A stretch of DNA of 44,111 nt, taken from the sequence record PZ379076.1; one strand, 5' to 3'. Source of the stretch: a phage. The notes below the pieces were generated by a model that saw only the letters and a list, made by a program, of their open reading frames with translations, had not been told where the DNA came from and ran no database searches. Below are positions 22,493 to 32,552 of the stretch, piece by piece (the first letter of the stretch is position 1; each line of letters opens with the position of its first letter). The position numbers and the translations under genes were made by a program.

Positions 22493-22854
22493 ATATTAAC
22501 GACTACACGGGAATACCTTACGACTTTCGCAAACGTAATTGCTGGCATCACGTGCGCATTGTCCGCGCGGATGCCGGGTTAGAAACCCCAGCGTTCGACG
22601 TTGCAAGTCCAACGGCGATTAACGAAGCGTTCGACGAAGGACATCGCAACACGAAGGGACTTACAAAAATTGATAAGCCTGAAAACTTCTGTGCGGTGCT
22701 TATGGGGTATCGCCGCGGCGGTCGTATCGTGTGGCACGCAGGAGTTTACTTCGACGGGATGGTGAGCCATTGCGAGCTTGCTTCCCGTCAGGTACGGCTT
22801 GACAGGCTGGCGGATCTCAGAGACACGTACACGGAGATTGAATTTTGGCGATAA
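22489..22854 (+). CDS. tail assembly protein (gpK position, possible Cys/His peptidase)
   Basis: 121 aa; conserved Cys-His (NCWHH) near the N-terminus and His-Cys (SHCE) near the C-terminus; ATGA overlap. Confidence 0.4.
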   Translation: MNINDYTGIPYDFRKRNCWHHVRIVRADAGLETPAFDVASPTAINEAFDEGHRNTKGLTKIDKPENFCAVLMGYRRGGRIVWHAGVYFDGMVSHCELASRQVRLDRLADLRDTYTEIEFWR

Positions 22855-24332
22855 TCCTGCACTACACGCGAAACGCTGATGGCGCTTTCAACCGTACAAA
22901 ACACGTCGGGATGCCGATGGAGTTTGTCGTTAACCGTATCCCGGACGGCGTTCCGGTACGCGTCTATCTTGGCGAGATTGGTGATGATACTGATGTTACA
23001 GACGACTTCGACGCGCTCAAAGACGAGGACGCCGTGTACCACATTATTGAGGGCGCTGGCGGCGGCATTGGCGACGCCATCGGGAGTGTATTCAGTTTCA
23101 TCCTTAAGCCAATCGCCAAATTGTTCGGGCTAAACACAGCGGCTAACGCTAATTATTCCGCTACCAACAATCAGGCTACGTCGCCTAACAACAGTCTCAC
23201 CGACCGCTCAAACAAGCCACGACCTTATGAGCGTTCCTATGATATCTGCGGGACAGTGCAGACCATCCCCAATGACCTGATGCAGACATATAAGGTGTTT
23301 AATGCCGCGGGTGCGCTTATTGAATATGCGTACTATGACGCCGGTCGAGGGTATCTGCATATTGAGGAAGACGGTGTAACGGAGGCGGATACCCGAATCA
23401 GCGAGATAACTGGCTCGTCGGTGACGGTGTATCCCCCTTATACTTCGCCAAATAATACCAGCACCCCACAATTGCATATCGGCGACCCTATAGACCAGAA
23501 ATTGTACGTTACATTTAAAAACGCCGATGTCGATGGCGCTGTTCTTCCCGCACCTAATGACATCGCTATAGACGTGCAGGACTACACTGTCCAGCGGCAG
23601 GGAACAACAGGTGTTGTAATAGGCGATGACGCTGGTTTCGATGAGTTTTTGGCTGTCGGGGACCTGGCATATTTCGATAACGTATATGCGGACACAACTC
23701 CTGGGTCTTTAGGTAATGAGGTTAACTTAGACGGGAGGTACACTGTTCTTTCGGTTAGTGAAACCACCATTATTGTGGACGTCAGTACAAATCAATCAGT
23801 ATGGAACCAGCTAGGGGCGTCTGTGTGGTTTATAGGTGAAGAGGGTAACCATCTTATAGGCCCGGCGGACACTTACGCGGCTTCTCTCTCTGAATGGGCG
23901 TACATCACCCGCGGTACTGTCGACCGTGTTGTAGCCAATGTCGCCGCCAGCAACGGCATGTACAAATACAACGGCGACTATAACCGCGCTTCAGTGACAG
24001 TCGAACTGCAATACCAGATGGTAGATGAATTGAAACAGCCTGTAGGTGACATATTTACCGTACGAGGAACCGTAACAGGCCGGAACACGGATTACACAGG
24101 GATTACTCTTTACGGAAGTTTACCAACTGCTTCCAGATTCCGCGCCCGTATGCGTCGTGTTTCGGACACCGATAAAGATTTTGAAGGTACTGTTAGCGAC
24201 GAGGTTACTTTCACTAATCTGTATGGGCAGTCGCTGGACACAACCCCCACTACGGCAACCGTACTACCGTACACTGCGCCCGTAAACAAACCCCACGTGC
24301 AGCCGAGGTGTCCGAACCGGAACTGCGCATGA
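22845..24332 (+). CDS. tail tip protein with gpI-like N-terminal region
   Basis: 495 aa (TTG start in track); glycine-rich hydrophobic segment GAGGGIGDAIGSVFSFILKPIAKLFG as in lambda I-type proteins. Confidence 0.5.
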   Translation: MAIILHYTRNADGAFNRTKHVGMPMEFVVNRIPDGVPVRVYLGEIGDDTDVTDDFDALKDEDAVYHIIEGAGGGIGDAIGSVFSFILKPIAKLFGLNTAANANYSATNNQATSPNNSLTDRSNKPRPYERSYDICGTVQTIPNDLMQTYKVFNAAGALIEYAYYDAGRGYLHIEEDGVTEADTRISEITGSSVTVYPPYTSPNNTSTPQLHIGDPIDQKLYVTFKNADVDGAVLPAPNDIAIDVQDYTVQRQGTTGVVIGDDAGFDEFLAVGDLAYFDNVYADTTPGSLGNEVNLDGRYTVLSVSETTIIVDVSTNQSVWNQLGASVWFIGEEGNHLIGPADTYAASLSEWAYITRGTVDRVVANVAASNGMYKYNGDYNRASVTVELQYQMVDELKQPVGDIFTVRGTVTGRNTDYTGITLYGSLPTASRFRARMRRVSDTDKDFEGTVSDEVTFTNLYGQSLDTTPTTATVLPYTAPVNKPHVQPRCPNRNCA

Positions 24333-25411
24333 TTGCAACCGAGATGTGCTACAAATACTTAGGTAACGGCGTATTCGATACGGTAATGACACCGAACACT
24401 CAGGCCGTGCAGTCGCTAATCAGGCTGGCGCGTGACCCTGTGGTGGGTAATCTGGAACTGACAACGGCAAATATGGACAAGTTACTTGCCGTGCAGGAAG
24501 AAATTGAGTCGTATTTTGACAGTGAATTAGCCGGGCAGTTCTGCTACACATTCGACGACTACGACACAACCATGCAAGACATCGTTCAGACCATCGCGGA
24601 AGCCGTGTTTTGTACGGCATACCGTAAAGGTGCTGATATTATGCTGCGATTCGACCGTCCTGTTGCGGGGCCTGAGATGGTTTTCACCCACCGCAGCAAA
24701 ACGACCGGTACGGAGAAATGGACGCGCACGTTCAACGATTCGACAACCTACGATAGCCTGTCGTTCTCGTACATTGACCCGGATACAAACGTACAGGAGA
24801 CGATTTATATCCCGGAAGAACTCGGCGCGAACACCGAGGAGTACGAATCGAAGGGTGTACGTAACTATCAGCAAGCGTACTGGCTGGCGTGGCGTCGCTA
24901 CCAGCGCAACACGTTAAGTAAAGTTGTCGTAGAGTTCGAAGCTACCGAAGAAGGCGCTCTCGCTACTCCCGGCGGCGTAATCAGTGTGGTTAAAGGCTCG
25001 CGTATCGCGCCGCAGGATGGTTATGTTGTTGCCGTCAATGGCCTTACGCTGACGCTGTCTCAGCCTGTTACGTTTACTCCTGGTGATGACCATTCCATCA
25101 TCCTCAAGAAGCGCGACGGCTCTGTGCAGAGTATTTCTGTTATCAAAGGAAGCCACGACCGCGAAGTGATTATGCTCTCCGCGCCGGAGGAGGCAATCTA
25201 CACGGGGAATAGCGCACTAAAAACTGAGTTTTCATTCGGCAACGAAGCAAGGCATAATGCTCAGAAGATAGTTGTTTCTTCAATCGACCCCGGCGACGAC
25301 CGCACGGTCAAGATTACTGGTTACAACTATGACGACGGATTCTATAAATACGACGGCGTCGCGCCATACGGCAGCAGCTTCTCCGACGGATTCAGCAATG
25401 GTTTTAATTAA
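24329..25411 (+). CDS. tail tip / host specificity region protein (hypothetical)
   Basis: ATG 24329 overlaps the upstream TGA (ATGA); track ORF 24308-25411 opens on GTG. Confidence 0.5.
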   Translation: MIATEMCYKYLGNGVFDTVMTPNTQAVQSLIRLARDPVVGNLELTTANMDKLLAVQEEIESYFDSELAGQFCYTFDDYDTTMQDIVQTIAEAVFCTAYRKGADIMLRFDRPVAGPEMVFTHRSKTTGTEKWTRTFNDSTTYDSLSFSYIDPDTNVQETIYIPEELGANTEEYESKGVRNYQQAYWLAWRRYQRNTLSKVVVEFEATEEGALATPGGVISVVKGSRIAPQDGYVVAVNGLTLTLSQPVTFTPGDDHSIILKKRDGSVQSISVIKGSHDREVIMLSAPEEAIYTGNSALKTEFSFGNEARHNAQKIVVSSIDPGDDRTVKITGYNYDDGFYKYDGVAPYGSSFSDGFSNGFN

Positions 25412-25423
25412 AGAGGACTCTAT

Positions 25424-27409
25424 ATGTCAAGCGGATGCGGTGACGTTTTAAGCCTGGCGGATTTACAGACCGCCAAGAAACATCAGATTTTCGAGGCCGA
25501 GGTTATCACTGGCAAATCCCGCGGTGTAGCTACGGGTGCAGACATTGATTACGCAACAAATCAGGTTACCGGGCAGACGCAGAAGACGCTTCCTGCCGTG
25601 TTGCGCGACGCGGGTTTTTCTCCGGTGTCATGGGATTTCTCCACAGGCGGCACGTTAACCGTTAACGACCGGGACAAGGTGGTGTATGACCCTGTTAGCA
25701 AAACATGGTACTCGTACGCAGGTACGTTACCAGTTGTTGTCCCTGCATCGTTTAATCCAGTCGGTAACGCTAACTGGAAGCCGCAGACAGACCCAAATTT
25801 GCGTAATGATTTGGCGTCAAGTACCGCCGGTTTAGGGGCTTCACTGGTGTCTTTTTCCAACGGTAACACCGTTGAAACATTATCTGACGCGGAAGGTGCC
25901 AAGAACATAGGCAGTGGCGAAAGGAGTTTGCTTGCACGTAACAATGATATTAAGCATTCTGGCGACTTTTCTACCCTTCAAGCCGCGGTAGATGCGTCGT
26001 TAACTAAAAACGACTTAATTGTTTCTCCGGGTGAGTATACAGAAGCAATCACTCTGGGTAGTAAGCAGATAAAAGGTGTAGGTGGTGCTGCAATATTAAA
26101 ACCATCGGCAAACTATGCAAATACTGTACAGGTTAATTTATCCACCCCGCACTGGCAGTTTCGACACAGCGGTGGTTTTGCCGTAGATGGTACAGGTACA
26201 ACTGGGGCCGTAGGTATTAGTTTTGACCCGTCAGACCAATATTCCGGACGTCATAATTTTAGTGATTTATACATCCACAACATCAACAAGGCCATTCAGA
26301 AGCCTTCCGGGAACATCGGTAATACATGGAGAAATATTGGGGTATCTACGTGTGATTGGGGGTATTACGCGATTAGTGGCTCAGAGATGCATTGCGGGGC
26401 CGATACCCTCTACAATATCCACTTCGACGGCATCTCCACCTATGCCGTCTACCTAAACGGCACTGTCGATAACGGCGGGATAGGCGGATGGTGGCTTAAA
26501 GACTCCATTATTGAGGCTTCCGGAGGCGGCGGGATATATTTAAAAAGCAAATCAGGTGACTGCCCTACATCTCCATGCGGGGTATCCAATGTATGGACGG
26601 AAGCGATTGCAACATCATCGGCTGTTCAGGTAGACGGCGTGGCGCAAAAACCGCGAGTTCTCAAGTTGGTAGACACCGCGATATTCTTTGCTGAGTATTC
26701 TTATCTCAACAACATCGAGCTATCCAACTCCAACTTAGTAACTTATGGTTGCCGTTTTGACAACGCCGATGGTAATCAGGATATTGTAGTGGATGCACAA
26801 AGCACCATCGTAGCCCACGACGTGTATTTAAACGGCAGCTCTGGAAAGGACGTTATTGTAGAGTCTGTCGCGTCGCAATCCGCAACGATAGCCACTACAA
26901 ACTTGTCTCTACGAGGAAATTTAACAAGGGGACGAGTGTTTAATACGCCGACGGGGAATAAGTTAAAAGCTATCACATTTGACTCAGGTAGCCATAATTT
27001 TTCTGGTAGCGGTACCGTTAACGGTTCGACTGTATCTGACGGACTTCACGCCGCTACATGTACCGAATTTTCATTCCCTGGGTCCGGTTTATATGAAATG
27101 GTAGCGTCAAGAACGACACTTACATCCGGTAGATGGTACGTGTGGGGCGTCAACTCTCGCCTCCAATCAGGAACAGCAGATGTGAGTATAACGTTAGGTA
27201 TTACTATGGGTAGCGTTTATACTAAGTCTGGTGAGTGGATTAGCACATTTGGGGTGGGTAAAGCTTCCGCTAACGGTACTGTAGGTCTGTACGTCTCTAC
27301 TGGGGGAGGTTCAGGTGCTGTTATCAGATTTAGTGACTTCTTCATCGCTGAGTTTACGACGCAGGCTCAGGCTTTAGCTTTCGCTAACTCCCGAATGTCG
27401 TTGGCTTAA
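25424..27409 (+). CDS. tailspike / tail fibre with probable beta-helix (depolymerase-like) domain
   Basis: 661 aa; last tail gene; Gly/Asn/Ser/Thr-rich repeats typical of beta-helix receptor-binding proteins. Confidence 0.65.
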   Translation: MSSGCGDVLSLADLQTAKKHQIFEAEVITGKSRGVATGADIDYATNQVTGQTQKTLPAVLRDAGFSPVSWDFSTGGTLTVNDRDKVVYDPVSKTWYSYAGTLPVVVPASFNPVGNANWKPQTDPNLRNDLASSTAGLGASLVSFSNGNTVETLSDAEGAKNIGSGERSLLARNNDIKHSGDFSTLQAAVDASLTKNDLIVSPGEYTEAITLGSKQIKGVGGAAILKPSANYANTVQVNLSTPHWQFRHSGGFAVDGTGTTGAVGISFDPSDQYSGRHNFSDLYIHNINKAIQKPSGNIGNTWRNIGVSTCDWGYYAISGSEMHCGADTLYNIHFDGISTYAVYLNGTVDNGGIGGWWLKDSIIEASGGGGIYLKSKSGDCPTSPCGVSNVWTEAIATSSAVQVDGVAQKPRVLKLVDTAIFFAEYSYLNNIELSNSNLVTYGCRFDNADGNQDIVVDAQSTIVAHDVYLNGSSGKDVIVESVASQSATIATTNLSLRGNLTRGRVFNTPTGNKLKAITFDSGSHNFSGSGTVNGSTVSDGLHAATCTEFSFPGSGLYEMVASRTTLTSGRWYVWGVNSRLQSGTADVSITLGITMGSVYTKSGEWISTFGVGKASANGTVGLYVSTGGGSGAVIRFSDFFIAEFTTQAQALAFANSRMSLA

Positions 27410-27414
27410 AACTA

Positions 27415-27436
27415 AGGCCCCAAACGGGGCCTTTTC
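27415..27436. terminator. bidirectional rho-independent terminator
   Basis: Stem aggcccc (27415-27421) / ggggcct (27426-27432), loop aaac; T-rich on both sides; between convergent genes. Confidence 0.7.
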
Positions 27437-27437
27437 T

Positions 27438-27575
27438 CTACTCTTCTGATAACTTCTCCAGTACAAACGCCAGTTGCGCATTAGCGGCGTCTCTTTGCTG
27501 ACGTAGCCGCAGAACCTCTTCTTCGAGTTCCTTGATACGTTTTTGCAATGCCGGAATTGGGGCTATGATGTTCAT
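27438..27575 (-). CDS. hypothetical small coiled-coil protein (45 aa)
   Basis: ATG 27575 overlaps upstream stop (ATGA); translation MNIIAPIPALQKRIKELEEEVLRLRQQRDAANAQL...; below track cut-off. Confidence 0.4.
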   Translation of the reverse strand: MNIIAPIPALQKRIKELEEEVLRLRQQRDAANAQLAFVLEKLSEE

Positions 27576-29430: not shown

Positions 29431-29507
29431 CAGATATTACAGCGCGGGTGTTGCAGCATGAACGAAGTCATGAGCTTCTGGTACTCTCGACGGATAAATT
29501 TAGACAT
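29337..29507 (-). pseudogene. N-terminal fragment of the same helicase in the other frame
   Basis: ATG 29507, translation MSKFIRREYQKLMTSFMLQHPRCNIWCGMG... carries the Q-motif (REYQ) and the start of the P-loop; frames swap at the run 29417-29421. Confidence 0.55.
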
Positions 29508-29509
29508 GT

Positions 29510-29704
29510 TCAATCCTTAACGTAGAGTACCAGCTCTTTACGCCCGAACGCGGTAACGTTGCCTGTTACATCTTCGATAACCAGTTTACCGTTTGACTCG
29601 ACGAACACAGTATCAACGGCAACAGGCTGGCGGGTCTTAACGTTGAAAATCATGTCGCCAGGTACGATGTCACGTGCTGGTTTGCGGTCGTATTCGTGTT
29701 TCAT
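29510..29704 (-). CDS. hypothetical protein
   Basis: 64-aa ORF in track, first gene behind the promoter at 29738-29766. Confidence 0.55.
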   Translation of the reverse strand: MKHEYDRKPARDIVPGDMIFNVKTRQPVAVDTVFVESNGKLVIEDVTGNVTAFGRKELVLYVKD

Positions 29705-30382: not shown

Positions 30383-32552
30383 AGCGTTTTAACTCCTGAC
30401 CTTCCGCTACAAGAGGGAACCCCTCCGCCCATTCTGGTAATTCGCACATCAATCGCTCAAGCTCTGCGACATTGTATTCCGGCGTATCTGGAGTTTCGCA
30501 GATAATCTCATCGTGGACATGAAGTACAATTGGATAACCGTTTGCTTCTACGTTCAGCAGCGCGTTGGCCAGCAAATCACGGCACAACGCCTGAGTGCAG
30601 TTTTCCACCAGTTTACCAGAGTAGGTGTACTGGAAGCCCCACTGCCGGGTTAACTGGTTTTCGCCCTGGTACTTGATGCGCACGTTAGTAGACACCTTTC
30701 CATCTTCGTCTGTCTCTTTCGACACACTTAATCCGACGCCCGGGTATGACATAACGCGACCCGACGGCAACGTCATGCGCAACCACCAGCCCGCGACTTT
30801 GTCGCCGTTGTTGTCTGTCTCTATGTTACGCGAAAACTTAACGCCTCGCGGTCCTGCGGTGAACTCTTTACCTGGATTGCGGATAGCGGCCATAGCTGCG
30901 TCTTCAATATCTCGCCAGAAAGCTACTGTTTCAGGGTGTGACTCTCGCCACATACGCTTGATAGCGTCACAGGTACGCCACACTTTCTTATCAAGAATAT
31001 ACGATGGTCGGTCATCCTTCTCCCCGGGTCGCGGCGGTCGCTTGGCTTCCTGAATACGTGCCCATTCATAGCCGCGTGCAGTAGCCGCCCAGATGTGGTC
31101 CGGGAAAGTACCGTCCATTGTTTTTGACATATCAACAAGGTCAAGTCCGAGGTTCTTAGCAAACTGAACGAAAGCGCCAACACCACCAGCGTAGCCGAGG
31201 CCAAGCTCGCAGGCTTTACCAATCTGGCGCAAGTCTTTGCGTTCCTTCTTAATGTAATCCGGCTCCATGCCGAACATCTTACCCGCGGTTACACAGTAAA
31301 TGTCCAGCCCGGCGCGGAACGTATCTAGCGCGGTTTCTTCGCCTGCCAGCCACGCAAGCCCCCGACCTTCAACGTTAGAGTAATCGGCAACGACAAACTT
31401 ATGCCCTGCTTCCGGTATGATGCAGCTACGAACGGTCGATGCCGTTAGCTTGGCCACATCGAAACGGCGATGGGCGCGACCCTTAAGTAACGCCGAAATG
31501 CCTTTATCCAGCTCATCATCGTGATAGTAACCGCGTGCCAGGTTCTGCGGCTGGAAGCCTTTACCGGCCCATCGCAGAGTACGCTTTGCCCCACCGTACT
31601 GGATACAACCGCGGCGTCGGTCGTCCGACGAGCGGCCTAACAGCAGCGGGTTATATTTCGTGGACGCTGTTGACGCGGCCCCGAGGCGCATTTCGATAAT
31701 CATCCGGGCGTCGTCCGGTAAATCATCATCTGCCAACAGGTCGTTAAGCGTCGACTTCTGTGCATTGTGTATGTGGTGCGCGGGCGCAAGTTCACGCAGA
31801 ATCGGAAGGAAGTCTTTACCGGTAAGCGAGCCGCCGTATTTACGTTGAGCTTCTTCCTGTAACTGTGCCTTGTGCTTCTCTACGGCTTCAATCGCGGCTT
31901 CCGCCAGTGCGACGTCAACCTTAAATCCGCGGTCGTTGATTAACTGGTCAAGTTCCAGTACACGGTCTTCGAACTCGGAGTTACCCCAACGCGGCAGCTT
32001 ATGGAAGACTTCACGCATCGCAGTGATGTCGCTCACGGCGTACCTGATGAACATCGCCCACTCGTCAGGGTGAGTTTCTGCGGTGTAGCGGCGGATTTTG
32101 TAGTTCTTCGGCGTCGGTTTAGAGAAACGCTTAATCAGAGCCTTGCCGCGTTTATCTTTCGCGTTGTCTGCAGACACGCCCAGCACTTCGCACAGCGCAT
32201 CAAGAGAACCCGGCAGCGCGTGACGGAACGCCCAAATCATAGTATCAATGGTGTTACTTACCGGAATATCAAAGTCCCAGCAGTGTTTCATGATTAGGCG
32301 ATCGAAAAGTCCACCGTTGTGCCACACCATCTTGATGCGGCTGTTGGGCTTAACAAGGCGGCGCAGTGCGCGGTGTAAATCCCCCGGCATGTCGCTGCCG
32401 TCGGTGCAATCCCATACCCGCACAGGTTCGTCGTCAAAAGCATATGTACAGATAAGCACTTCGGTTGACGGGTGTTCGGCGTAAGCGTAAGAACCGACTT
32501 TCTTCAAATCGGCTTCTGAGAATGTTTCAAAGTCTAAGAACAGGTAACTCAT
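30372..32552 (-). CDS. DNA polymerase, family A, with 3'-5' exonuclease domain
   Basis: 726 aa; Exo I FLDFETFS; polymerase motif A DYSNVEGR, motif B-like K...LGLGYAGG, motif C VHDE. Confidence 0.9.
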   Translation of the reverse strand: MSYLFLDFETFSEADLKKVGSYAYAEHPSTEVLICTYAFDDEPVRVWDCTDGSDMPGDLHRALRRLVKPNSRIKMVWHNGGLFDRLIMKHCWDFDIPVSNTIDTMIWAFRHALPGSLDALCEVLGVSADNAKDKRGKALIKRFSKPTPKNYKIRRYTAETHPDEWAMFIRYAVSDITAMREVFHKLPRWGNSEFEDRVLELDQLINDRGFKVDVALAEAAIEAVEKHKAQLQEEAQRKYGGSLTGKDFLPILRELAPAHHIHNAQKSTLNDLLADDDLPDDARMIIEMRLGAASTASTKYNPLLLGRSSDDRRRGCIQYGGAKRTLRWAGKGFQPQNLARGYYHDDELDKGISALLKGRAHRRFDVAKLTASTVRSCIIPEAGHKFVVADYSNVEGRGLAWLAGEETALDTFRAGLDIYCVTAGKMFGMEPDYIKKERKDLRQIGKACELGLGYAGGVGAFVQFAKNLGLDLVDMSKTMDGTFPDHIWAATARGYEWARIQEAKRPPRPGEKDDRPSYILDKKVWRTCDAIKRMWRESHPETVAFWRDIEDAAMAAIRNPGKEFTAGPRGVKFSRNIETDNNGDKVAGWWLRMTLPSGRVMSYPGVGLSVSKETDEDGKVSTNVRIKYQGENQLTRQWGFQYTYSGKLVENCTQALCRDLLANALLNVEANGYPIVLHVHDEIICETPDTPEYNVAELERLMCELPEWAEGFPLVAEGQELKRYVK

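What the first reader, a model, noticed from the sequence alone, without database searches (positions are those of the whole stretch)
25424..27409. Tailspike with beta-helix-like body: candidate polysaccharide depolymerase
The terminal tail gene has an N-terminal region likely to be the particle-binding adapter and a long Gly/Asn/Ser/Thr-rich body typical of right-handed beta-helix receptor-binding enzymes. Such proteins determine host range and are frequently exchanged horizontally.
Basis: partly seen in the sequence, partly recalled or inferred. Interest (0 to 1): 0.35.

Follow-up and report, generated by a model that had tools for sequence, protein, structure and literature searches.

The report
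Known O25-type phage tailspike, beta-helix
This is the ordinary host-recognition tailspike of a Kagunavirus E. coli phage: a swappable attachment head joined to a beta-helix body shared with phages of the pandemic O25b/ST131 clone. It is already annotated in near-identical published genomes.

Summary
The ORF 25424..27409 (+, 661 aa) is real. It has a Shine-Dalgarno site and a terminator, and it is the last gene of the tail module of a Kagunavirus genome. It is 99.0% nt identical to the annotated tailspike of phage phiEc3 and about 96% to that of phage Golestan.

It has four parts:
- **Anchor (aa 1-~135):** conserved in more than 100 protein clusters that carry unrelated C-termini.
- **Linker (aa ~136-180).**
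- **C-terminal beta-sandwich (aa ~511-661):** resembles carbohydrate-binding modules.

Residues ~154-661 are about 88% identical to the tail fibre gp17 of the O25b/ST131 podophage LM33_P1. The same module also occurs behind a P22 head-binding domain in E. coli prophages. Published host ranges of phages carrying it point to the O25(b) O-antigen.

H323, W391, E393 and D446 are near-invariant down to 27% identity. This suggests an active glycan-cleaving site, but no activity has been shown and no family member has a solved structure.

The finding is ordinary and already known.

The parts
25411..25416 (+). Shine-Dalgarno sequence AAGAGG, 7 nt upstream of the ATG. The stop codon of the upstream J-like gene overlaps it at 25409-25411.
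   Evidence: Read directly from the sequence.
25424..27409 (+). Tailspike (receptor-binding protein) gene, 661 aa including the TAA stop codon.
   Evidence: ORF. It is 99.0% nt identical to the phiEc3 'tailspike protein' and matches PHROG 27367 over its full length.
25424..25828 (+). N-terminal anchor module (aa 1-~135). It comprises helix 11-29 and a small beta domain at aa ~56-125 of the TSP1/gp66 N-terminal type, and ends in the motif TDPNLRNDLAS.
   Evidence: - 65-95% identical in more than 100 clusters with different C-termini.
- Other Kagunaviruses match only nt 1-404 of the gene.
- PF18668 scores 23.7 bits against a cut-off of 25.
- The profile hits 9d84, 9lna, 9occ, 4oj5 and 5w6h.
- AF2 pLDDT is 80-92, and Foldseek matches the CBA120 TSP1/3/4 N-terminal domains.
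25829..25963 (+). Linker and junction (aa ~136-180). It holds a second copy of the linker motif (LSDAEGAKNIGSGERSLL, aa 153-170), which begins the LM33_P1-like module. Nucleotide homology to LM33_P1 starts at window 25905.
   Evidence: pLDDT is below 55 here. Megablast matches start at gene nt 482. N-terminal homologues diverge after about aa 131.
25964..26953 (+). Right-handed parallel beta-helix body (aa ~181-510). It starts with the cap FSTLQAAVDA...SPGEYTE. It contains the family-invariant residues H323, W391, E393, R444, D446 and D457.
26954..27406 (+). C-terminal region (aa ~511-661). The last coils lead into a beta-sandwich (long strands 546-644) that resembles carbohydrate-binding modules. 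A conserved terminal helix follows (647-656, motif AxxFANSR).
   Evidence: DSSP and pLDDT 89-98. Foldseek matches 8xmz (TMt 0.64) and the CBM22 entry 4xuo (TMt 0.59). F644, A650 and N655 are 98% conserved.
27414..27439 (+). Intrinsic terminator: hairpin AAGGCCCC-AAAC-GGGGCCUU followed by UUCUCU. It lies between the tail module and the convergent replication genes.
   Evidence: RNA fold gives dG -15.5 kcal/mol and z -3.84. Sequence.

Best explanation
The gene encodes the single tailspike (receptor-binding protein) of a Kagunavirus siphophage.

**Architecture and proposed mechanism**
- By analogy with all solved tailspikes, it is presumably a homotrimer.
- The conserved N-terminal module (aa 1-~135) docks the trimer to the tail tip, next to the J-like protein.
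- The right-handed beta-helix (aa ~181-510), together with a C-terminal beta-sandwich, binds the O-antigen of E. coli serogroup O25. The target is most likely the O25b variant of the ST131 clone.
- The beta-helix probably also cleaves the O-antigen, so the virion works its way down the LPS layer to the outer membrane.
- The most likely catalytic residues are E393 and D446, with H323 and D457 nearby.

**Origin of the receptor-binding part**
- It is a mobile module shared with Kayfunavirus podophages (LM33_P1 gp17) and with P22-like E. coli prophages.
- It was joined to the Kagunavirus anchor just after the conserved 'LRxDLA' linker.

**Shown versus inferred**
- Shown here: the gene, its context, the domain architecture, the fold, the module sharing and the conserved residues.
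- Taken from the literature on near-identical phages: the O25 host bias.
- Inferred: trimer formation, enzymatic cleavage, the identity of the catalytic residues, and the bond that is cut.
For: **Gene, signals and context:**

**Near-identity to annotated tailspikes:** phiEc3 99.0%, 22664BS2 97.2% and Golestan 96.2% nt.

**Fold**
- AF2 gives mean pLDDT 84, with values above 90 for aa ~180-661.
- Foldseek places CBA120 TSP4, K2-2 TSP, KP32gp38, Sf6 and HK620 at the top.
- Three distant family members hit Pfam PF12708 (2.2e-9) and PF13229 (4.9e-6).

**Anchor:**

**Module sharing**
- 83% aa identity to LM33_P1 gp17 over the 568 aligned columns (query aa 95-661), and about 88% from aa 154 onward.
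- The same module sits behind PF03906, PF09008 and PF18668 N-termini.
- A prophage copy lies between P22 gp16/antirepressor genes and intS in an E. coli chromosome.
- The RBD has 46.9% GC against 52.5% for the anchor.

**O25 link**
- LM33_P1 is the ST131-O25b phage (title of Dufour 2016, cited in PMC7885116). It is reported active on ST131 and ST69 (PMC11670814).
- phiEc3 and phiEc4 lyse mostly O25 UPEC (PMC8285336).
- Three Kayfunaviruses and one Kagunavirus carry this module. All were isolated on O25b-positive hosts and have near-equal plaquing host ranges of 41-44% (PMC8614997; module presence).
- Kagunaviruses depend on the O-antigen, and their tailspike is encoded after the J-like gene (PMC11990801).

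**Possible active site**
- H323, W391 and E393 are conserved in 44 of 44 homologues, D446 in 43 of 44 and D457 in 41 of 44.
- These homologues go down to 27% identity.
Against: - No enzymatic assay, halo observation or solved structure exists for any member of this family. 'Halo' and 'depolymerase' are absent or only generic in the phiEc3 and Golestan papers, and a profile of the body finds no PDB sequence at E<=10.
- The window protein itself hits no Pfam catalytic or beta-helix family.
They could be structural.
- phiEc3 lysed only 8 of the 14 O25 strains in the part of Table 1 that I read. It also lysed one O75 and one O8 strain, so O25 is neither sufficient nor strictly necessary.
- None of 5426 complete E. 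coli genomes, which include many ST131, carries the module at more than 66% nt identity.
- The primary LM33_P1 paper could not be read.
Confidence: 0.65

Rival explanations
1. The protein is a binding-only adhesin. The beta-helix and C-terminal sandwich recognise the O25 O-antigen (or another glycan) but do not cleave or modify it. The protein would then act like a rigid tail fibre.
For: - Databases call it 'tail fiber protein' in several records.
- No Pfam catalytic domain is found, and no reported halo or depolymerase activity.
- A CBM-like C-terminal domain could carry the binding function.
Against: - A histidine and two or three carboxylates stay invariant across homologues down to 27% identity, which very probably bind different glycans. 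That pattern fits a catalytic centre better than a specificity pocket.
- The best structural matches are overwhelmingly active depolymerases, lyases and hydrolases.
- The O16 tailspikes of Kagunaviruses are described as enzymatic (PMC11990801).
Confidence: 0.2
2. The protein is an O-antigen-modifying esterase (deacetylase) rather than a chain-cleaving enzyme. It would resemble phage G7C gp63.1 in function, or use a pectin-methylesterase-like beta-helix site.
For: - A weak 'pectinesterase' CDD hit was reported for the LM33_P1 and Golestan proteins (PMC7885116).
- The N-terminal domain resembles that of G7C gp63.1 (4qnl).
- From my own recollection, not checked here, the O25b repeat unit carries an O-acetyl group.
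Against: - Methylesterases rank well below tailspike glycosidases and lyases in both searches.
- The only QD pair that could mimic the methylesterase motif (Q452-D453) is not conserved in the family.
- The body is a beta-helix, not the SGNH fold that carries the gp63.1 esterase activity. The resemblance to gp63.1 is limited to the N-terminal domain.
Confidence: 0.07
3. The module targets a capsule (K antigen) or another surface polysaccharide of ExPEC strains rather than the O25 O-antigen. The O25 bias would then be only a clonal correlate.
For: - Only part of the O25 strains are lysed, and single O75 and O8 strains are lysed too.
- Kagunavirus K1G/K1H and Kayfunavirus K1F use capsule-specific spikes at the same locus (PMC10408124; PMC11990801).
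Against: - LM33_P1 is described as covering both ST131 and ST69. To my knowledge these lineages share O25b but are otherwise unrelated.
- All isolation hosts of phages with this module were O25b-positive by PCR.
- Partial coverage of a serogroup is expected from intracellular defences and O25a/O25b differences.
Confidence: 0.08

Closest known systems
Tailspike of Escherichia phage vB_EcoS-phiEc3 (QZI78298.1) and of other Kagunaviruses: 22664BS2, Golestan ORF30, phiEc4, fEg-Eco06
   Same: Same gene, same length (661 aa), same position after the J-like tail protein, and 96-99% nt identity over the whole gene. The phages are O25-biased or were isolated on O25b hosts.
   Different: About 1% nt differences, concentrated at gene nt 900-1400. 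The window's genome is only about 93-95% identical overall. It lacks phiEc3's cytosine methyltransferase.
Tail fibre gp17 of Kayfunavirus LM33_P1 (YP_009324518.1), the ST131-O25b podophage
   Same: The receptor-binding body is shared. BLASTP gives 83% aa identity over 568 aligned columns (query aa 95-661), about 88% from aa 154 onward, and nt identity reaches 98-99% at gene nt 800-1300. The Golestan paper already noted this (88%; PMC7203180).
   Different: The N-terminus is the T7-type tail-fibre adaptor (PF03906) for a podovirus tail, and the protein is 726 aa long. The first ~500 nt are unrelated, and the start (nt 500-700) and part of the end of the module are only 65-71% identical.
P22-like prophage tailspikes with a head-binding domain (PF09008) plus this body (644 aa, e.g. 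P0022)
   Same: The body is 81% aa identical, and the central core at nt 800-1300 is 91-97% nt identical. The gene is the last one before the integrase in an E. coli prophage at the intS/yfdC site.
   Different: It has the P22 gp9-type N-terminal domain and belongs to a temperate podovirus. The C-terminal sandwich region is only 56-70% nt identical.
Structurally characterised beta-helix tailspike depolymerases: CBA120 TSP2/TSP4, KP32gp38, Sf6, HK620, P22 and 9NA tailspikes, and Geobacillus virus E2 ORF18
   Different: Identity is only 7-15%, and the body shows no sequence-detectable relationship to any PDB entry. The catalytic residues of those enzymes cannot be transferred. This family has its own invariant MHxG, NxWxE and CRxD motifs.

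Membership tests
Phage tailspike proteins with a right-handed parallel beta-helix (pectate-lyase-like fold) | Central right-handed parallel beta-helix domain | tested here: met
Phage tailspike proteins with a right-handed parallel beta-helix (pectate-lyase-like fold) | Separate, exchangeable N-terminal particle-binding module | tested here: met
   aa 1-~135 are conserved in more than 100 clusters with unrelated C-termini. The body is found behind four other N-terminal types.
Phage tailspike proteins with a right-handed parallel beta-helix (pectate-lyase-like fold) | Encoded in the tail module next to tail-tip genes | tested here: met
   The gene lies directly downstream of the J-like tail protein and is the last gene before the terminator.
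Phage tailspike proteins with a right-handed parallel beta-helix (pectate-lyase-like fold) | Homotrimeric assembly | not testable with these tools
   Only a monomer could be modelled. Trimer formation is inferred from solved tailspikes.
Phage tailspike proteins with a right-handed parallel beta-helix (pectate-lyase-like fold) | Cleaves or modifies the receptor polysaccharide (depolymerase activity) | not testable with these tools
   Only indirect evidence: invariant H323, E393 and D446. No assay appears in the papers read.
LM33_P1 gp17-type receptor-binding module (O25b-associated) | High sequence identity across the whole receptor-binding body | tested here: met
   83% identity and 89% positives over 568 aligned columns, query aa 95-661. 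nt identity is 86.7% over gene nt 482-1979.
LM33_P1 gp17-type receptor-binding module (O25b-associated) | Specificity for O25b O-antigen | not testable with these tools
   Supported only by published host data for phages with the module. Exceptions are the O75 and O8 strains lysed by phiEc3.
Pfam PF18668 Tail_spike_N (TSP1/Gp66 N-terminal domain) | Score at or above the Pfam gathering threshold | tested here: inconclusive
   - The score is 23.7 bits against a cut-off of 25, at aa 77-112.
- Close homologues are precomputed as PF18668.
- The profile hits CBA120 TSP1 at E 5e-4.
- The fold matches the TSP1/3/4 N-terminal domains.
Pfam PF12708 / PF13229 (pectate-lyase-like beta-helix families) | Significant sequence match of this protein to the family model | tested here: not met
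   The window protein has no hit at E<=1. Only 3 of 13 distant homologues match: PF12708 at 2.2e-9 and PF13229 at 4.9e-6. The relationship is therefore at fold or superfamily level.
Carbohydrate esterase family 8 (pectin methylesterase) | Conserved Gln-Asp and Asp catalytic motifs on consecutive coils | tested here: not met
   The only QD pair (Q452-D453) varies freely among homologues. Methylesterases rank low among the fold matches. The motif definition comes from my own knowledge of the family.
Endosialidase / T5-type fibres with a C-terminal intramolecular chaperone | C-terminal Peptidase_S74 chaperone domain | tested here: not met
   There is no such Pfam hit. The C-terminus is a beta-sandwich plus a short conserved helix.

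The most novel reading that the evidence does not exclude
The body of this protein may found a beta-helix glycanase family that is still uncharacterised biochemically and structurally. The family has no Pfam model and no PDB relative by sequence. It would have its own invariant MH(323)xG, NxW(391)xE(393) and CR(444)xD(446) centre and would specifically cut the O25b O-antigen of the pandemic ST131 clone. Its ~500-nt catalytic core is 91-99% nt identical in a siphophage, a T7-like podophage and a temperate P22-like prophage. That would indicate very recent three-way exchange of the core, while the flanking anchor and C-terminal sandwich diverge.
Probability: 0.45. Interest if true: 0.35.

Novelty: already known. 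Interest (0 to 1): 0.15.

Why it matters
The gene decides which E. coli strains this phage can infect. The evidence points to serogroup O25(b), the O-type of the multidrug-resistant ST131 clone. Proteins of this module could therefore serve for typing or capturing ST131, for stripping its O-antigen, or for retargeting small siphophage chassis.

None of this is new in kind. The gene is annotated in near-identical genomes. Its similarity to LM33_P1 gp17 is published. Module swapping between Kagunavirus and Kayfunavirus tailspikes has been described. What remains open is the biochemistry: whether it cuts, which bond it cuts, and which residues do it.

Tried and rejected
- **PDB sequence searches.** phmmer of the whole protein gave only a chance hit (LPP20, E 0.11). 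A profile of the body gave nothing at E<=10. No family member has been solved.
- **Pfam on the window protein.** Only a sub-threshold PF18668 hit.
- **Species genome collection.** One scan gave 56 pattern matches but no confirmed relative.
- **Complete E. coli genomes.** Only two distant matches at 65-66% nt. The lysogen's O-type could not be read from a closed genome. The flank of the one prophage locus obtained is 99.4% identical to ST131 genomes, but 635 genomes reach at least 99%, so this is weak evidence.
- **Primary literature.** The LM33_P1 paper is not held. Searches for gp17 or receptor work on it gave only citations.
- **Internal promoters.** Six promoter-like sites were found against 3.5 +/- 1.9 expected, which is not meaningful. 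I rejected an internal start for a free enzyme.
- **Terminator scan.** The consensus scan missed the real hairpin at 27414-27433. I confirmed it by folding.
- **Esterase reading.** I considered a pectin-methylesterase-like site and rejected it as the main model, because the QD motif is not conserved.
- **3D placement.** I could not place the conserved residues on the model, because coordinates are not exposed.
Full report
**1. What is at the coordinates**

A single ATG-initiated ORF runs from 25424 to 27409 on the + strand and encodes 661 aa. It has an AAGAGG ribosome-binding site 7 nt upstream. Four nt after its TAA stop codon lies a strong hairpin followed by a U-rich tail, at 27414-27439. 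The hairpin has dG -15.5 kcal/mol and z -3.8, and none of 200 shuffles folds as well.

The gene closes the + strand structural module. Upstream are a DUF1833 minor tail protein, a K-like protein and a J-like tail protein. Downstream, on the other strand, are Toprim and SNF2-helicase genes and a family-A DNA polymerase.

Gly+Asn+Ser+Thr make up 39.3% of residues 161-661, against 25.8% for the pooled long ORFs of the window. This is the highest value of all 31 ORFs.

**2. What genome this is**

The window is a Kagunavirus (Guernseyvirinae) genome. It is 93-95% nt identical to the E. coli phages vB_EcoS-22664BS2, fEg-Eco06, phiEc3, Golestan and others.

The gene itself is 99.0% identical to the annotated 'tailspike protein' of phiEc3. 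It is 97.2% identical to that of 22664BS2 and about 96% to those of Golestan, phiEc4, fEg-Eco06 and K-02. Proteins 99% identical also exist in metagenome assemblies. The feature is therefore already in the public record under the right name.

**3. Architecture**

*(a) Anchor, aa 1-~135.*
- phmmer against 1.84 billion cluster representatives finds 821 relatives.
- More than 100 of the best 150 share only residues 1-~132/155, at 51-95% identity. Beyond that point they carry unrelated C-termini of 550-860 aa.
- The conserved part ends in '...W-K-P-Q-T-D-P-x-L-R-x-D-L-A'.
- A profile of this part hits the N-terminal regions of solved spikes: Shigella phage B2 Gp48 (9d84, 8.8e-10), 9lna, 9occ, CBA120 TSP1 (5e-4), TSP4 and TSP3, and G7C gp63.1.
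- A dedicated AF2 model has pLDDT 80-92 for aa 5-125, with a helix at 11-29 and a small beta domain. It retrieves the same structures by fold.
- Pfam PF18668 (Tail_spike_N) matches aa 77-112 just below threshold, at 23.7 bits against 25.

*(b) Linker, aa ~136-180.*
- This part is modelled with low confidence.
- It contains a second copy of the linker motif. The Kagunavirus anchor ends with 'LRNDLASSTAGLGASLV' (aa 126-142).
- The incoming module begins with 'LSDAEGAKNIGSGERSLL' (aa 153-170). The LM33_P1 counterpart reads 'LRANLADSDGAKYIGSGERTLL'.
- The junction therefore lies at about aa 143-152. [quoted passage not shown]

*(c) Beta-helix, aa ~181-510.*
- The full-length AF2 model (39-sequence alignment) has mean pLDDT 84.1 and pTM 0.71. 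Values are mostly above 90 from aa 180 to the end, and the model shows a long run of short, regularly spaced strands.
- Foldseek agrees, with CBA120 TSP4 at E 1.5e-11, then K2-2 TSP, KP32gp38, Sf6, HK620 and P22.

*(d) C-terminal region, aa ~511-661.*
- Long strands at 546-644 form a beta-sandwich.
- Foldseek matches it to carbohydrate-binding modules: a porphyran-binding CBM (8xmz, TMt 0.64) and CBM22 (TMt 0.59).
- A terminal helix follows. Its motif (F644, A650, N655) is 98% conserved in the family.

**4. The body is a mobile module**

BLASTP aligns query aa 95-661 with the tail fibre gp17 of Kayfunavirus LM33_P1 at 83% identity and 89% positives over 568 columns. From aa 154 onward the identity is about 88%.

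At the DNA level the match starts at gene nt 482 and is mosaic:
- 65-68% at nt 500-700;
- 98% at nt 800-1000;
- 90-99% up to nt 1400;
- 71-93% towards the end.

The same body follows at least three further kinds of N-terminus: the T7 tail-fibre adaptor PF03906, the P22 head-binding domain PF09008, and longer PF18668-containing forms.

One P22-type copy (P0022, 81% aa identity) sits between P22 gp7/gp20/gp16-like ejection genes plus an antirepressor and the integrase. The site is the intS/yfdC-fadL site of an E. coli chromosome. Its central core is 91-97% nt identical to the window, but its C-terminal part is only 56-70% identical.

The module has 46.9% GC, against 52.5% for the anchor and 50.4% for the window. 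'Frequently exchanged horizontally' is thus directly visible here. It has also been described in general for these genera (PMC10408124).

**5. Which receptor**

I could not test this, but four published observations agree.
- LM33_P1 is the ST131-O25b phage (title of Dufour et al. 2016 as cited in PMC7885116). It is reported active on ST131 and ST69 (PMC11670814).
- phiEc3 and phiEc4 lyse mostly O25 uropathogenic strains. In the part of Table 1 that I read, phiEc3 lysed 8 of 14 O25 strains, plus one O75 and one O8 strain (PMC8285336).
- Three Kayfunaviruses (101118UKE1, 101136BS1, 22664BS1) and the Kagunavirus 22664BS2 all carry the module.
  - All were isolated on O25b-PCR-positive hosts.
  - Their plaquing host ranges on 79 UTI strains are almost the same, at 41, 44, 42 and 43% (PMC8614997).
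- Kagunaviruses studied in the BASEL collection depend fully on the O-antigen. They encode one enzymatic tailspike right after the J-like gene (PMC11990801).

The flank of the prophage copy is 99.4% identical to O25b:H4-ST131 genomes. However, 635 genomes reach at least 99%, so I give this little weight.

**6. Is it an enzyme?**

This is the part that remains inference. The window protein has no Pfam hit in the body. Three of 13 distant homologues do reach PF12708 (2.2e-9) and PF13229 (4.9e-6), which ties the family to the pectate-lyase-like superfamily by sequence as well.

I aligned 44 homologues that go down to 27% identity. Their different N-termini and divergence suggest they recognise different glycans. 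In that alignment:
- H323, W391 and E393 are invariant (44 of 44);
- D446 is present in 43 of 44, R444 in 41 of 44 and D457 in 41 of 44;
- these residues lie in the motifs MHxG, NxWxE, CRxD and DxxS;
- D360 and E364 are replaced by Asn or Gln in 8 and 6 sequences, so they are less likely to be catalytic.

A conserved histidine and carboxylate set in a beta-helix whose best structural matches are active depolymerases makes cleavage the most likely mechanism. I put that at roughly 0.6-0.65. I could not place these residues in space, and no assay, halo report or structure exists for any family member.

**7. Rivals**

- **O-antigen esterase (0.07).** A weak 'pectinesterase' hit has been reported and methylesterases appear among the fold matches. 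But the QD motif is not conserved, and the gp63.1 resemblance is limited to the N-terminal domain.
- **Capsule-specific spike (0.08).** Host coverage within O25 is incomplete and includes single O75 and O8 strains. Against this stand the ST131-plus-ST69 coverage and the O25b-positive isolation hosts.

**8. Comparison with what is known, and novelty**

- In function and architecture this is a standard tailspike of the CBA120/Sf6/P22/9NA kind.
- By sequence, its body belongs to a family with no solved member.
- The gene is 96-99% identical to annotated tailspikes.
- The LM33_P1 similarity was published for Golestan (88%; PMC7203180).
- The weak pectinesterase signal was noted for LM33_P1 and Golestan (PMC7885116).
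- I therefore rate it 'already known' and of low interest (0.15).
- The most novel reading still open is this: the body may be the prototype of an uncharacterised glycanase family specific for O25b, with a catalytic core recently exchanged among three virion types. I give this probability about 0.45 and modest interest.

**9. Side observations**

- The upstream J-like tail gene is split into two ORFs by a one-base difference in a C-run.
- The window lacks the cytosine methyltransferase gene of phiEc3.
- The DNA polymerase differs from that of phiEc3 by a short replaced segment.

Noticed in passing
window 22845-25411 (break at about 24239-24243): The J-like central tail protein is one 832-aa CDS in phiEc3. 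Here it is split into two overlapping ORFs (22845..24332 and 24308..25411). The cause is a single missing C in a homopolymer: C5 here and C6 in phiEc3. The rest of the region has only substitutions (86 mismatches). This is either a homopolymer sequencing or assembly error or a genuine frameshift in an essential tail gene.
   Followed up: partly
window 29489-29526, compared with L001 10068-11031: phiEc3 encodes a cytosine-specific DNA methyltransferase between the SNF2 helicase and the next small gene. The window has no counterpart: the flanks are contiguous, with about 36 bp between them. This phage therefore lacks that anti-restriction-type gene.
   Followed up: partly
window 31486-31516, compared with L001 12845-12944: Inside the DNA polymerase gene, a ~100-bp segment of phiEc3 is replaced by ~30 bp here. 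This fits the shorter product (726 aa against about 750 aa). The rest of the gene is 89-94% identical.
   Followed up: no
window 26224-26724 (gene nt ~800-1300), compared with L002 and L003: The central ~500 nt of the beta-helix are 91-99% nt identical in a siphophage, a T7-like podophage and a P22-like prophage. The flanking parts of the same module drop to 56-83%. This mosaic within the receptor-binding module suggests repeated recent exchange of the core.
   Followed up: partly
L003 1-11165 (Logan SRR14303836 contig): A P22-like prophage end (gp7/gp20/gp16-type ejection proteins, antirepressor, tailspike, integrase) is integrated next to yfdC-mlaA-fadL. The E. coli chromosome flank is 99.4% identical to O25b:H4-ST131 genomes. 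No complete RefSeq E. coli genome carries this tailspike body.
   Followed up: partly
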